Part shown: positions 41,875-51,101 of the stretch, in pieces
Layout: every line of letters begins with the position of its first letter
How positions within the stretch are numbered: position 1 is the stretch's first letter
IMG/VR virus record: IMGVR_UViG_3300035698_022762
Span: 16,389-80,388 of that record
DNA length: 64,000 nucleotides
Direction: 5' to 3' (one strand)
DNA from: a virus
Notes under the pieces: generated by a model
The model's input: the letters and a program-made list of their open reading frames with translations, nothing else
What the model was told of the DNA's origin: nothing
Databases searched by the model: none
Translations under genes and position numbers: made by a program

Positions 41875-44511
41875 ATGTTAAATGAAATAGATTTGAGAAT
41901 ATGGGGTAAATGGGATGACAAAAAGAAAGCCATGCATCCTGCTTTGCTCCATATGGTAGATACAGGTTTTGTCATACAAGAACTGCTTGGAACTTTTAGC
42001 ACTCATGAATTGGATTTTGTTTCCAAAAAAATGAATTTAAATATAAATGAAGCAAAAACATTTTTGACATTCATGATGCCGTTGCATGATTTAGGAAAAA
42101 TAACACCAGAATTCATCAAACAAGTAGAGGAAGCTGCAGACTTAATAAAAGATGACTACTGTTTCTACCCAAATGATGAAAAAATAAGACATGAATTGTT
42201 TTCGATGCATCTTTTGAAAAACGTTTTGCTCCCTGATTTCGCAGCGAAAAATGACGTATGTGCTGTTATTGGTGGACATCATGGGAAGTTTTCCATTCTG
42301 CCATCAAAGTTTCCTCCCAAAAAAATAAAAAGATTCAAAAGATTTTGTGGTCGTGATGACGAAAAATGGTGTAAACAACAAAAATTGGCTTATGACTTTC
42401 TAACAAGCATATTTCCAATAAGTGAAGAAATTCTAAATAAAGTAAATATAAATCCAGATTTATATTTCTTTTTAGCTGGTTTGATTTCTAATGCAGATTG
42501 GATTGCTTCTGACAGCAATCTATTCCCCCTTTCTGGTTTCGACCAATCCCTTGATCAATATGTTGTGAAAAGCAAAGGATTGGCAAAAAAAGCCTTTAAA
42601 ACAATTGATTGGAATCTTTGCAAGATTAAGAACCAACAGTTCGATGAAACTTTTGGGTTCCTTCCTTATCCTTCTCAAAAAATAATCATAAATGAAATAG
42701 AAAAAATAACATCACCATGTCTGATGATAATAGAAGAATCTACTGGAAGTGGCAAGACAGAAATAGCACAACATTCTGCGTCATTTTTAATGTCAAAACT
42801 AAAACATCGTGGCATTCAAATGTGGTCACCTACCAGAACAACATCTGATTCTGTTTTCAAAAGAATGGTTAGCTTTTTAAGAAAAACGGTTGATGGGAAA
42901 GCCAACATACAGCACATACATTCAAATTCTAAAAGAAATAAAGATTATTTAGAATTAAAAAATAAAGACAACGATGACAACGCCACTGTAGTTGCGAAAT
43001 ATTGGTTTTCTAGTGGCAGAAAAAGATTAATGTCGCAGTTTAGTACAGGTACTGTTGATCAAATAATGAAAGGGGCAATTTACAATAAATATTTTTACAT
43101 GCCCCTTTATGCTTCTTTTAATAAAGTGGTGATAATTGATGAGATACACAGCTATGATGTGTTTATGGGCAATTTAATTGAAGTTTTAATTGAAAAATTA
43201 AAAGAAATGAATTGCTCAATCATATTGCTGTCTGCAACTTTATCTAATTCAACACGTCGAAAACTAATTAATGCTTATGGTGCAGAAGCAAATGATGAGA
43301 TCACGAGATATCCTAGACTTACAGTTTGTCAAAACAACAACTCTAACTGCACACAACTTTTTACACATAGACACAAAAAAATAAAATTAGAACATTTGCA
43401 TTTAAATCCACCAACTCCACAAAAAAACGAAATAAAATCATATGACGAATTAGCACAAAAAGCATTATGTAAAATAGAAAATGGTGGGGCTATAAATATC
43501 GTTTGCAACACTGTAAAACAATCACAAAAAATATATAATGCTTTCAAGTCTCTTAATGCAAGTCCATTGTTGCTTCATTCAGGATTTACAAAGAAAGATA
43601 GAAGCAGGATAGAACAAAACATCATTGACAAATATGGAAAAGAATATAATTCAAAAAGAGATAAAACCATTGTAATAGGAACGCAAATAATCGAACAAAG
43701 TTTAGATATAGATTTTGATTATACTTTTTCTTTCATCTGTCCTATAGACTTTTTGATACAAAGACTAGGAAGGTTGTGGCGTTTTTATAGAACAAATGAG
43801 TTTGAAATTCCGAATGGGCAAATTGGGTTTTCAGTTTTTAGCAAAACTCCAGAAGCCACCATAATTTATGAATATTCTGACGAAAAAGAATTAGAAAGTT
43901 ATGGCATTTATTCGTCTTATATAATGCATTTAACTCAAAAAAATATAACTCCTTTAGACGAAGTGGTGTTGCCTGATATGACGGACTTGCTAATAAACAA
44001 TGTGTACGAACAAATTGATATAGAATCAAACAATCAAGAAGAAAAATTGAAAAAAAAATACAATAAAGCTGAACAAGACGCCAATTCTGAATCCATAAAA
44101 GTTACTTTATCTAAAGACAACAAATACACGCTTAATGAAGAAAACAACTATGATGATTCAAACACTCGTGACATTAGTACGCCTACAATGAATGTAATAC
44201 TATTGTTTAAAAAAGGTAACAATTGGACATTGGGGGAAGGCATGCCAAATATAAATTTTAGAAAAAAGGAATTCAGTAGCGAAGAAATAAATTTGATTAC
44301 GCAGAATTCTTGCCCAATTTCAGGTAAACCATTATTTAATTATTTTAATAACAATAAATTTTCTGAATGGAAGAATATATTTGAATTAAAATATTATTCC
44401 ATTTTGATATTAGAAGAAGATGGGAAACAAACAATCTACGGCGACAACTGGAAAGCAGAATTGCAATATGACAGTACTATAGGACTGTGTAAAAATGTTT
44501 TTTGGCAATGA
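41875..44511 (+). CDS. cas3: CRISPR-associated helicase/nuclease Cas3 (type I-E)
   Basis: HD domain (HPALLHMVD, LHDLGK, GHHG, ADWIAS); helicase motifs TGSGKTE, DEIH, SAT and QRLGRLWR. Confidence 0.95.
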   Translation: MLNEIDLRIWGKWDDKKKAMHPALLHMVDTGFVIQELLGTFSTHELDFVSKKMNLNINEAKTFLTFMMPLHDLGKITPEFIKQVEEAADLIKDDYCFYPNDEKIRHELFSMHLLKNVLLPDFAAKNDVCAVIGGHHGKFSILPSKFPPKKIKRFKRFCGRDDEKWCKQQKLAYDFLTSIFPISEEILNKVNINPDLYFFLAGLISNADWIASDSNLFPLSGFDQSLDQYVVKSKGLAKKAFKTIDWNLCKIKNQQFDETFGFLPYPSQKIIINEIEKITSPCLMIIEESTGSGKTEIAQHSASFLMSKLKHRGIQMWSPTRTTSDSVFKRMVSFLRKTVDGKANIQHIHSNSKRNKDYLELKNKDNDDNATVVAKYWFSSGRKRLMSQFSTGTVDQIMKGAIYNKYFYMPLYASFNKVVIIDEIHSYDVFMGNLIEVLIEKLKEMNCSIILLSATLSNSTRRKLINAYGAEANDEITRYPRLTVCQNNNSNCTQLFTHRHKKIKLEHLHLNPPTPQKNEIKSYDELAQKALCKIENGGAINIVCNTVKQSQKIYNAFKSLNASPLLLHSGFTKKDRSRIEQNIIDKYGKEYNSKRDKTIVIGTQIIEQSLDIDFDYTFSFICPIDFLIQRLGRLWRFYRTNEFEIPNGQIGFSVFSKTPEATIIYEYSDEKELESYGIYSSYIMHLTQKNITPLDEVVLPDMTDLLINNVYEQIDIESNNQEEKLKKKYNKAEQDANSESIKVTLSKDNKYTLNEENNYDDSNTRDISTPTMNVILLFKKGNNWTLGEGMPNINFRKKEFSSEEINLITQNSCPISGKPLFNYFNNNKFSEWKNIFELKYYSILILEEDGKQTIYGDNWKAELQYDSTIGLCKNVFWQ

Positions 44512-44571
44512 CCTTTACGATTCGTAATTTGGTATTAGAATGAATGGAGTTCAAACAAGGAATTCATTCAT

Positions 44572-50068: not shown

Positions 50069-50190
50069 AGTAAAAATGCTCAATCGACAAATACAGAAGC
50101 AATGTGTCGTTAAGTCTCTTTATTGTTGGTACTTACATCAAAAGCACAATATATTGTGCTTTTGATGTACTCATAGTACAATATGATGGT
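50069..50190 (+). promoter_or_regulatory. CRISPR leader with 36-bp perfect palindrome and putative promoter
   Basis: Palindrome at 50134-50169; TTGTGC(50154)-17-TACAAT(50177). Confidence 0.75.
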
Positions 50191-51101
50191 TTGTTCCCCA
50201 TGTAATGGGGGTGTTCCCACAGACAAGATAACGAAGGTAATATTGCCTATTTGTTCCCCATGTAATGGGGGTGTTCCTATGGAAAGCCGATGCTGTCTTT
50301 CAAGTACTTGTTGTTCCCCATGTAATGGGGGTGTTCCTAGAGATAAAGAGGAAGGCATCTATACATCCAATTGTTCCCCATGTAATGGGGGTGTTCCTTT
50401 GCGGATGAGTACGTTAATCGCCCGTTTGATTGTTCCCCATGTAATGGGGGTGTTCCTCTGGTAAAAAAATGCCTCAGCATGGTTAGCTGTTGTTCCCCAT
50501 GTAATGGGGGTGTTCCTTGCCGAAATGGACAATGTAAAGAAGTGGGCGATTGTTCCCCATGTAATGGGGGTGTTCCTTGCACCTTGCTTGATACCATTGC
50601 CAGAAGTTATTGTTCCCCATGTAATGGGGGTGTTCCTTAAGCATGAGCTAAAAGATTTAGTCAGGGGCATTGTTCCCCATGTAATGGGGGTGTTCCTATC
50701 TATCCGCCCGAAACCCTTGAAAATGTCATTTGTTCCCCATGTAATGGGGGTGTTCCCATCCACGTCGTACCCCAAGGCAACAAGTGGGCTTGTTCCCCAT
50801 GTAATGGGGGTGTTCCCATCCACGTCGTACCCCAAGGCAACAAGTGGGCTTGTTCCCCATGTAATGGGGGTGTTCCTTATTCCAGCAGCATAAGCCGATT
50901 TCCAGATATTGTTCCCCATGTAATGGGGGTGTTCCTAGCTGTATGGCAGCCCTATCGCACCTATCATGTTGTTCCCCATGTAATGGGGGTGTTCCTCAAT
51001 CGCATCCGCCGCATTTATTCCCCATGTAATGGGGGTGTTCCTAATCTTATGCCAGTATTTCCCATTGTCATCGATTATTCCCCATGTAATGGGGGTACTG
51101 A
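50191..51101 (+). CRISPR. Type I-E CRISPR array, 16 repeats and 15 spacers
   Basis: Repeat TTGTTCCCCATGTAATGGGGGTGTTCC(Y) with 59-60 nt period and a CCCCAT/ATGGGG hairpin; the last two repeats are variant and the last is degenerate, so the leader is on the cas2 side. Confidence 0.98.

What the first reader, a model, noticed from the sequence alone, without database searches (positions are those of the whole stretch)
41875..51101. Complete, adaptation-competent type I-E CRISPR-Cas system in a T4-like phage
Seen: all eight I-E genes in canonical order, with catalytic motifs intact in Cas3, Cas6e and Cas1, a leader and 15 spacers. The system starts 2.4 kb downstream of the capsid gene and has the same AT-rich composition as the phage. 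Established: most phage-borne CRISPR systems are reduced and lack Cas1/Cas2; Vibrio phage ICP1 (type I-F) is the classic complete case. Inference: a long-resident autonomous phage immune system against satellites, competitors or host defence islands.
Basis: partly seen in the sequence, partly recalled or inferred. Interest (0 to 1): 0.75.

Follow-up and report, generated by a model that had tools for sequence, protein, structure and literature searches.

The report
Complete type I-E CRISPR-Cas in huge phage

Summary
All eight type I-E genes pass NCBIfam cut-offs, in the order cas3-cse1-cse2-cas7-cas5-cas6e-cas1-cas2. The catalytic residues of Cas3, Cas6e and Cas1 are intact. A 122-bp leader and a 16-repeat, 15-spacer array follow.

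The carrier is an IMG/VR virus record of 80,388 b, estimated 11% complete. It is a huge phage with a gp23-like capsid protein, related to the 595-kb LR756511.1, not a T4-sized phage.

Chimerism is unlikely:
- Hef-like homing-endonuclease genes like those that end 12 nt before cas3 lie just after the capsid gene in 25 of 58 relatives.
- The contig's far end again matches a sister phage.
- Composition matches the phage core.
- The sister phage (225 kb) carries the same deep-branching I-E lineage, without cas1-cas2.

Read mapping could not be run.

No protospacer was found and no other genome shares the repeat, so the targets are unknown. Spacer GC (about 0.45) exceeds phage GC (0.32).

Novelty is modest. 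Al-Shayeb 2020 Table S1 already lists a huge phage with Cas1, Cas2, Cas3 and Cse2, and IMG/VR holds another complete I-E on a 420-kb contig. This scan earlier noted a huge-phage I-E without adaptation genes on other DNA.

The parts
39529..39561 (+). Intrinsic terminator-like hairpin (14-bp stem followed by a T run) after the capsid gene; marks the end of the conserved structural block
   Evidence: synteny with the relatives ends at the capsid gene
39711..40730 (+). Endonuclease-like gene 1: three DUF4379 treble-clef zinc fingers plus a TnsA-like N-terminal nuclease domain. It matches the N-terminal half of phrog_559 (HNH/homing endonuclease). Neighbour of the cas operon, not shown to belong to it
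40732..41862 (+). Hef-like homing endonuclease family gene (C-terminal half of phrog_559; phrog_3339). It ends 12 nt before cas3. Homologues lie just downstream of the capsid gene in many related phages
41875..44511 (+). cas3 (878 aa): N-terminal HD nuclease fused to an SF2 helicase, all motifs intact
44572..46089 (+). cse1/cas8e, the Cascade large subunit (505 aa); holds an in-frame 39-nt tandem duplication at 45799-45883
46086..46610 (+). cse2/cas11, the small subunit (174 aa, TTG start overlapping the cse1 stop)
46623..47735 (+). cas7e/cse4, the backbone subunit (370 aa)
47735..48379 (+). cas5e (214 aa)
48366..48941 (+). cas6e, the pre-crRNA endoribonuclease (191 aa); catalytic His26 conserved
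48945..49811 (+). cas1e integrase (288 aa); E141, H208, D218 and D221 conserved
49799..50068 (+). cas2e (89 aa)
50069..50190 (+). AT-rich leader between cas2 and the first repeat; contains a perfect 36-bp palindrome at 50134-50169
50191..51102 (+). CRISPR array: 16 repeats of 28 nt (TTGTTCCCCATGTAATGGGGGTGTTCC[T/C]) and 15 spacers (13 of 32 or 31 nt including a duplicate pair, plus one of 18 nt). The far-end repeats are degenerate, so the leader end is next to cas2

Best explanation
[quoted passage not shown] It lies in the variable region just downstream of the capsid gene of a huge (estimated 0.5-0.7 Mb) uncultured phage.

Likely mechanism, inferred from the family and not tested here:
1. 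The array is transcribed from the leader.
2. Cas6e cuts each repeat at the 3' base of its 7-bp stem. This gives crRNAs with a 7-8-nt 5' handle (GUGUUCCU), a 32-nt guide and a 3' hairpin.
3. Cse1, Cse2, Cas7, Cas5 and Cas6e assemble on the crRNA as Cascade.
4. Cse1 reads a PAM, an R-loop forms, and Cas3 is recruited to nick and processively degrade the target DNA.
5. Cas1-Cas2 insert new spacers at the leader-proximal repeat. The last repeat base varies (T in 12 repeats, C in 3), as expected if it is copied from the PAM, as in E. coli I-E.

The repeat is unknown elsewhere and the phage has its own integrase, so the system can in principle update itself without host Cas proteins.

The targets are unidentified. 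Spacer GC is about 0.45 against 0.32 for the phage. That points away from close kin of this phage and towards other mobile elements or the host chromosome.
For: SYSTEM INTACT.

PHAGE ORIGIN OF THE CONTIG.
- The record is an IMG/VR virus, 11% complete.
- TerL, portal, protease and capsid genes are present.
- Contig positions 1-55.9 kb are collinear with the 225-kb viral contig G001.
- 379 IMG/VR contigs carry capsid relatives; the best 80 are 75-81% identical.

LEFT JUNCTION. In 25 of 58 relatives with enough flank, a homologue of the gene at 40732-41862 or 39711-40730 lies 0.17-1.5 kb after the capsid stop on the same strand. Phage-native DNA therefore runs to 12 nt before the cas3 start codon.

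RIGHT SIDE. Window 61939-63642 matches G001 at 148-150 kb, at 38% and 63% identity.

COMPOSITION. GC3 and codon use equal those of the core genes. The dinucleotide distance is 67, against 46 +/- 12 (maximum 70) for windows within the phage.

LINEAGE.
- G001 carries cas3 to cas6e of the same lineage, 31-44% identical.
- The Cas7 tree gives a 7-row clade on a long stem with SH-aLRT 100: the window, G001 (identical to P0003) and four further metagenomic proteins.
- The nearest cellular Cas7 is at most 38% identical, and the nearest Cas1 is 41%.

REPEAT. It is absent from genome contigs and viral contigs.
Against:
- No spacer target was found anywhere searched.
- The array shows wear: a duplicated unit, one 18-nt spacer and two mutated terminal repeats.
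- None of the 80 closest capsid relatives has cas genes within 10 kb of the capsid gene. In G001 the locus sits elsewhere in the genome, so its position is not conserved.
- Activity, expression and the PAM are untested.
Confidence: 0.8

Rival explanations
1. Assembly chimera, or a host-encoded system. On this view the cas-array block belongs to a bacterium (or to the host DNA flanking a prophage) and was joined to phage sequence by the assembler.
For: - Collinearity with both relatives stops at the capsid gene.
- Nothing between 42 and 61.9 kb apart from the cas genes has a counterpart in G001 or LR756511.1.
- IS607/IS605-type genes lie downstream.
- Reads could not be checked.
Against: - The two relatives also lose collinearity with each other after the capsid gene, so this is a natural variable region.
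- The gene ending 12 nt before cas3 belongs to a family that follows the capsid gene in 25 of 58 relatives.
- The contig's end matches G001 again.
- GC3 and codon use are phage-like.
- An independently assembled sister phage carries the same Cas lineage inside a 225-kb viral contig.
- No cellular genome has a close Cas7 or the repeat.
Confidence: 0.07
2. A real phage locus that is no longer adapting. It would be a fixed set of guides inherited vertically, with cas1-cas2 kept but idle, on the way to the cas1-cas2-less state seen in the sister phage.
For: - Most phage systems lack the adaptation genes (PMC7162821; PMC12676247: 250 of 299).
- G001 has lost or lacks cas1-cas2. Its 10-spacer array is identical in a contig from another sample.
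- The window's array has a duplicated unit and a truncated spacer.
Against: - Cas1's four catalytic residues are intact, and Cas1 and Cas2 both score above their equivalog cut-offs.
- 14 of the 16 repeats match the consensus apart from the variable last base.
- A leader is present.
- The last repeat base varies in the way expected from PAM-derived insertion.
Confidence: 0.2
3. The system mainly targets the host chromosome, for host takeover or silencing of host defence genes, rather than rival phages or satellites.
For: - Spacer GC averages about 0.45 against 0.32 for the phage.
- There are no hits to any phage, plasmid or related huge-phage sequence searched.
- Huge-phage spacers that target host genes are on record (PMC7162821).
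Against: - No host is identified and no chromosomal match was sought for the spacers; the genome-contig scans went to the repeat and to Cas7.
- Missing hits are the norm for environmental spacers.
Confidence: 0.25

Closest known systems
Canonical type I-E CRISPR-Cas (E. coli K-12, Thermobifida fusca, Thermus thermophilus)
   Same: - The same eight genes in the same order.
- Cas3 with a fused HD domain, a separate Cse2, and no Cas4.
- The array lies after cas2, behind a leader.
- The repeat has a 7-bp stem and a roughly 8-nt 3' tail; spacers are 32 nt.
- All catalytic residues are conserved.
   Different: - It is carried by a phage.
- The Cas proteins tested against the databases are very divergent: Cas7 at most 38% to any cellular homologue, Cas1 at most 41% to anything.
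- The repeat is 28 nt, not 29, with a 3-nt loop.
- The leader holds a perfect 36-bp palindrome.
- Cse1 has an internal 13-residue duplication.
Huge-phage CRISPR-Cas systems (Al-Shayeb et al. 2020, PMC7162821), including F21_PHAGE_55_22 in Table S1 (type I with cas5, cas6, cas7, cas8, cse2, cas3, Cas1 and Cas2)
   Same: A class 1 system on a phage genome above 200 kb. The carrier is related to a genome from that study: LR756511.1, which is SR-VP_PHAGE_COMPLETE_CIR-CU-CL_42_23. At least one phage in the table has the full I-E-type gene set with Cas1 and Cas2.
   Different: The paper states that almost all such systems lack Cas1, Cas2 and Cas4, so this one is among the exceptions. LR756511.1 itself has no Cas7 or Cas3 homologue. 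I could not compare sequences with F21_PHAGE_55_22.
Vibrio phage ICP1 type I-F system (Seed et al. 2013, as summarised in PMC11656645)
   Same: A complete phage-borne type I system with its own adaptation module and array, sitting in a variable locus of a lytic myovirus.
   Different: The subtype is I-E, not I-F. The carrier genome is several times larger. The target is unknown here, whereas ICP1 targets the PLE satellite. There is no experimental evidence here.
Sister phage contig IMGVR_UViG_3300035698_018317 (G001, 225 kb)
   Same: The capsid protein is 78% identical, and about 53 kb is collinear. It carries the same I-E lineage (cas3 to cas6e, 31-44% identical). Its repeat is related, with the same GTGTCCC-type tail and a variable last base.
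   Different: It has no cas1-cas2 and no leader; its array of 11 repeats starts right after the cas6e stop and its proximal repeats are decaying. The locus sits about 75 kb from the capsid gene. The same 10 spacers recur in a contig from another sample.

Membership tests
Type I-E CRISPR-Cas | Signature large subunit Cse1/Cas8e and a separate small subunit Cse2/Cas11 | tested here: met
   TIGR02547 scores 92 bits (cut-off 70) and TIGR02548 scores 37 bits (cut-off 28.5); PF09481 and PF09485 also match
Type I-E CRISPR-Cas | Cas7e, Cas5e and Cas6e Cascade subunits, with the Cas6e catalytic histidine | tested here: met
   TIGR01869 236 bits, TIGR01868 106 bits, TIGR01907 83 bits, all above cut-off; His26 aligns with T. 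thermophilus Cse3 His26
Type I-E CRISPR-Cas | A single Cas3 with an N-terminal HD nuclease fused to an SF2 helicase | tested here: met
   PF18019 covers residues 10-217, followed by the DEAD, Helicase_C and Cas3 C-terminal domains. The HD, Walker A, DEIH and QRLGR motifs are present
Type I-E CRISPR-Cas | Cas1e and Cas2e adaptation pair with the Cas1 catalytic residues, and no Cas4 | tested here: met
   TIGR03638 271 bits (cut-off 215.6) and TIGR01873 42.6 bits (cut-off 33.15). E141, H208, D218 and D221 are present. There is no extra ORF inside the operon. Cas4 was not searched for across the whole contig
Type I-E CRISPR-Cas | Gene order cas3-cse1-cse2-cas7-cas5-cas6e-cas1-cas2, then leader and array; repeat of about 29 nt with a stem-loop; spacers of about 32 nt | tested here: met
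   Order. The 28-nt repeat folds into a 7-bp stem with a 3-nt loop. 13 of the 15 spacers are 32 or 31 nt
Type I-E CRISPR-Cas | crRNA-guided, PAM-dependent DNA interference and spacer acquisition | not testable with these tools
   Needs expression, interference and acquisition assays
Phage-encoded (not host-encoded) CRISPR-Cas | The locus is physically part of a phage genome, with phage genes on both sides | tested here: met
   - Virus record with a structural module upstream.
- A Hef-like gene native to the capsid-downstream position ends 12 nt before cas3.
- The distal genes match the sister phage.
- Read-level confirmation was not possible.
Huge phage clade around LR756511.1 (Al-Shayeb 2020 set) | Capsid and terminase proteins cluster with genomes above 200 kb | tested here: met
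   - The capsid protein is 70.6% identical to LR756511.1 (595 kb) and 78% to G001 (225-kb fragment, 44% complete).
- TerL is 53-57% identical to both.
- No clade tree was built, so the 'Mahaphage' name is not asserted.
CRISPR-associated Tn7-like transposon (CAST) | TnsB, TnsC and TniQ present; Cas3 and the adaptation genes usually lost | tested here: not met
   Only a TnsA-like N-terminal domain occurs, inside a homing-endonuclease-type protein. Pfam finds no TnsB, TnsC or TniQ in the flanking ORFs, and Cas3, Cas1 and Cas2 are intact

The most novel reading that the evidence does not exclude
The window, G001 and four further metagenomic Cas7 proteins form an old type I-E lineage restricted to phages that has diversified within huge phages. 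One member keeps a working private adaptation module, with a repeat no host shares. Its sister has deleted cas1-cas2 and the leader and froze its array. That would be a natural before-and-after pair for how phage CRISPR systems lose adaptation. The GC-richer spacers might be aimed at the host chromosome or host-resident elements.
Probability: 0.3. Interest if true: 0.6.

Novelty: new member of a known kind. Interest (0 to 1): 0.4.

Why it matters
Phage-borne CRISPR systems that keep Cas1-Cas2 are the minority: about 16% in one survey (PMC12676247), and 'almost all' lack them in PMC7162821. Only ICP1's system has been tested experimentally (PMC11656645).

This locus is a clean, apparently intact I-E example on a huge phage. 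Its repeat is private and its Cas proteins are very divergent. A sister phage holds the adaptation-less version of the same lineage.

It is therefore a useful candidate for two things. One is testing whether a phage can update its own immunity. The other is sampling distant I-E sequence space, for example PAM preference or leader requirements without an obvious IHF-type arrangement. It does not change what is known about the kinds of systems that phages carry.

Tried and rejected
SPACER TARGETS. Nothing was found in any of these searches:
- the whole array against INPHARED phages and PLSDB plasmids;
- all spacers against the phage's own contig, G001 and about 1.2 Mb of fetched loci;
- all spacers against 1.04 Mb around the capsid genes of 80 relatives;
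- the array against LR756511.1 and four other viral records;
- spacers 1, 2, 6 and 10, with every sixth base free, against IMG/VR.

REPEAT. It has no exact match in 185,579 species genomes or in IMG/VR. Rfam gave no meaningful hit on the array or leader.

HOST. No clue emerged. There are no tRNAs in the window. The TnpB gene has 98% and 90% identical copies, but only in unnamed metagenome contigs. The Cas7 tree does not resolve a donor phylum.

CAS1 TREE. The window's Cas1 sits on a very long branch (1.69) and joins another long branch, so its placement is unusable.

ACCESSORY-MODULE IDEA. I considered that the two genes before cas3 form a new CRISPR accessory or self-mobilising module. I rejected this as the main reading, because they belong to the Hef-like/phrog_559 homing-endonuclease family, which commonly follows the capsid gene in this clade without any cas genes. 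I rejected a CAST reading as well; see the membership test.

The Cell 2022 survey of virus-encoded CRISPR-Cas systems is not held.
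Full report
WHAT IS THERE

ORFs at 41875-50068 on the + strand are tightly packed, with gaps or overlaps of 60 nt or less. Each matches the type I-E equivalog model above NCBI's curated cut-off: Cas3 (core and HD), Cse1, Cse2, Cas7, Cas5e, Cas6e, Cas1e and Cas2e. Pfam agrees.

Alignments to solved structures show the following:
- Cas1 has E141, H208, D218 and D221.
- Cas6e has His26 in YDMHK, aligned to YEMHR of T. thermophilus Cse3, plus the C-terminal glycine-rich loop.
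- Cas3 has the HD-domain motifs, Walker A GSGKT, DEIH and QRLGR.

After cas2 comes a 122-bp AT-rich leader. It contains a perfect 36-bp palindrome at 50134-50169, unique in the window.

The array follows at 50191-51102, with 16 repeats of 28 nt at a 60-nt period. The repeat folds into a 7-bp stem with a 3-nt loop and a 7-nt tail. That is the I-E layout.

Of the 15 spacers, 14 are unique. Spacers 10 and 11 are identical, spacer 14 is 18 nt, and the last two repeats are mutated. The leader end is therefore next to cas2. The last repeat base is T in 12 repeats and C in 3, including the two that precede the duplicated spacer. From my knowledge of E. coli I-E, that base is copied from the PAM during integration, so this pattern fits I-E-type acquisition. 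This is an inference.

WHAT CARRIES IT

The window is bases 16389-80388 of an IMG/VR virus record of 80,388 b, linear, with a CheckV completeness of 11%. That implies a genome of several hundred kb.

Upstream lie the large terminase, portal, prohead protease and a gp23-type major capsid protein. The capsid protein is 70.6% identical to LR756511.1. That record is the 595,163-bp complete phage SR-VP_PHAGE_COMPLETE_CIR-CU-CL_42_23 from vernal-pool mud, which has no CRISPR-Cas. It is 78% identical to the capsid protein of a 225-kb IMG/VR contig, G001, and only about 28-33% identical to T4-type phages.

IMG/VR holds 379 contigs with relatives of this capsid protein; the best 80 are 75-81% identical. 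'T4-like' is therefore true only of the distant structural module. The carrier is a huge phage.

IS THE LINKAGE REAL?

The indirect evidence is consistent, as follows.

1. Contig positions 1-55.9 kb are collinear with G001 37.6-90.6 kb. Collinearity ends at the capsid gene, but G001 and LR756511.1 also diverge from each other there. The capsid 3' end is thus a natural border of a variable region, marked by a strong terminator at 39529-39561.

2. The two genes between the capsid gene and cas3 are homing-endonuclease-type genes. One has DUF4379 zinc fingers plus a TnsA-like nuclease. The other is Hef-like. Together they map to the two halves of phrog_559.

3. In 25 of 58 capsid relatives with at least 1.5 kb of downstream sequence, a homologue lies 0.17-1.5 kb after the capsid stop on the same strand. 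Most of these homologues are 40-55% identical. Clade-typical DNA therefore runs to 12 nt before the cas3 start codon.

4. The last two genes of the contig (61939-63642) match G001 at 148-150 kb, at 38% and 63% identity.

5. The GC3 of the cas genes (0.19-0.29) equals that of the core genes (0.22-0.33). The codon-frequency correlation is 0.88. The dinucleotide distance (67) lies within the spread of windows from inside the phage (46 +/- 12, maximum 70).

6. G001 was assembled independently from another sample. It carries cas3 to cas6e of the same lineage, 31-44% identical, inside its 225 kb.

I put a chimera or a host origin at about 7%.

LINEAGE

Among 5.8 billion proteins, Cas7 has only five cluster representatives at 43-48% identity, all metagenomic. 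One of them (P0003) is identical to G001's Cas7. Everything else is at most 38%. The nearest Cas7 in 185,579 species genomes is also at most 38%.

A maximum-likelihood tree puts the window, G001 and these proteins in a clade with SH-aLRT 100 on a long stem. The neighbours are unresolved and include Bacteroidota and Chloroflexota. All clade members have AT-biased amino-acid composition. This fits AT-rich carriers, but it is also a caveat for the tree.

Cas1's best relative is 41% identical, and its tree placement is unreliable because of a long branch. The exact repeat occurs in no species genome and in no other IMG/VR contig.

Syntenic core proteins of the two phages are roughly 47% identical at the median (my reading of the identities listed). 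Their Cas proteins are about 37% identical and lie at different genomic positions. Either scenario remains possible: common descent followed by relocation, or separate capture from related sources.

THE SISTER PHAGE

In G001 the array starts directly after the cas6e stop, with no cas1, cas2 or leader. It has 11 repeats and 10 spacers. The cas-proximal repeats carry indels in the loop. The same 10 spacers occur in a 4.3-kb contig from another metagenome. This looks like a frozen, adaptation-less derivative of the window's layout. That is an inference.

TARGETS

No protospacer was found in any of the following:
- public phages and plasmids;
- the phage's own contig and G001;
- LR756511.1 and four other viral records;
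- the capsid regions of 80 relatives;
- IMG/VR, for four spacers.

Mean spacer GC is about 0.45 against 0.32 for the phage. The sources are therefore probably not close kin of this phage. The host chromosome or other mobile elements are both open.

COMPARISON WITH WHAT IS KNOWN

By every sequence criterion, the system is a member of type I-E. Phage-borne CRISPR-Cas is established:
- ICP1's I-F system is complete and functional (PMC11656645).
- Huge phages carry many types, and 'almost all' lack Cas1, Cas2 and Cas4 (PMC7162821).
- In a 2025 survey, 250 of 299 phage systems lacked them (PMC12676247).

However, Table S1 of PMC7162821 already lists a 246,765-bp baboon-gut phage, F21_PHAGE_55_22. 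It has Cas1, Cas2, cas5, cas6, cas7, cas8, cse2 and cas3, which is a complete I-E-type set. IMG/VR also holds a 419,707-bp contig with terminal repeats and a complete, unrelated I-E locus (G002).

Earlier notes of this scan record a huge-phage I-E without adaptation genes on other DNA (e1-5342091).

The finding is therefore a new, divergent member of a known kind.

VERDICT

- Observation: confirmed.
- Interpretation: supported, except that the targets and activity are unknown and the rarity was overstated.
- Interest: 0.4.

Noticed in passing
window 54493-60231 (- strand): An IS607/IS605-type set. It comprises a TnpB (OrfB_IS605 plus Cas12f1-like TNB domains, 408 aa), a 1051-aa ResIII/SF2 helicase-like protein, a 198-aa ORF, and a MerR-HTH serine recombinase of the IS607 TnpA type. 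TnpB has 98% and 90% identical copies on other, short JGI metagenome contigs.
   Followed up: partly
window 45799-45883 (inside cse1): An in-frame 39-nt tandem duplication (2.2 copies, 97% match) that repeats the 13 residues NKKAAEKADSLKE from codon 410 of Cse1. It lies near the end of the stretch the NCBIfam model covers.
   Followed up: no
window 50134-50169 (CRISPR leader): A perfect 36-bp palindrome 21 bp upstream of the first repeat, unique in the window. It could be an operator, a hairpin ending the cas2 transcript, or a DNA-bending element for integration.
   Followed up: partly
window 39711-41862; loci L197-L262: The two ORFs map to the N- and C-terminal halves of one PHROG profile (phrog_559, 607 positions), so they may be a split homing-endonuclease gene. 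Homologues follow the capsid gene in 25 of 58 related IMG/VR contigs. The family is multi-copy in Campylobacter T4-like phages and is also found in Prevotella phage records.
   Followed up: partly
L003:12282-12923 (G001) and L009:2050-2635: The sister phage's array has 11 repeats and 10 spacers. It abuts the cas6e stop and its proximal repeats are decaying. The identical spacer set is present in a contig from another metagenome.
   Followed up: yes
L006 (IMGVR_UViG_3300044557_000292, 419,707 b, direct terminal repeats): Another huge viral record with a complete I-E locus: cas3, cse1, cas7, cas5, cas6e, cas1 and cas2, 25-31% identical to the window's proteins. Only a weak large-terminase match was found (E = 5e-6).
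   Followed up: partly
window 63091-63642 (+): A 183-aa protein with a sigma-70 region 2 match, 63% identical to a G001 gene. It is a phage-encoded sigma-factor-like gene at the contig end.
   Followed up: no
window 51229-54194: A run of small ORFs (72-180 aa) directly after the array, with no PHROG hit. The first, at 51229-51771, also has no Pfam hit.
   Followed up: partly
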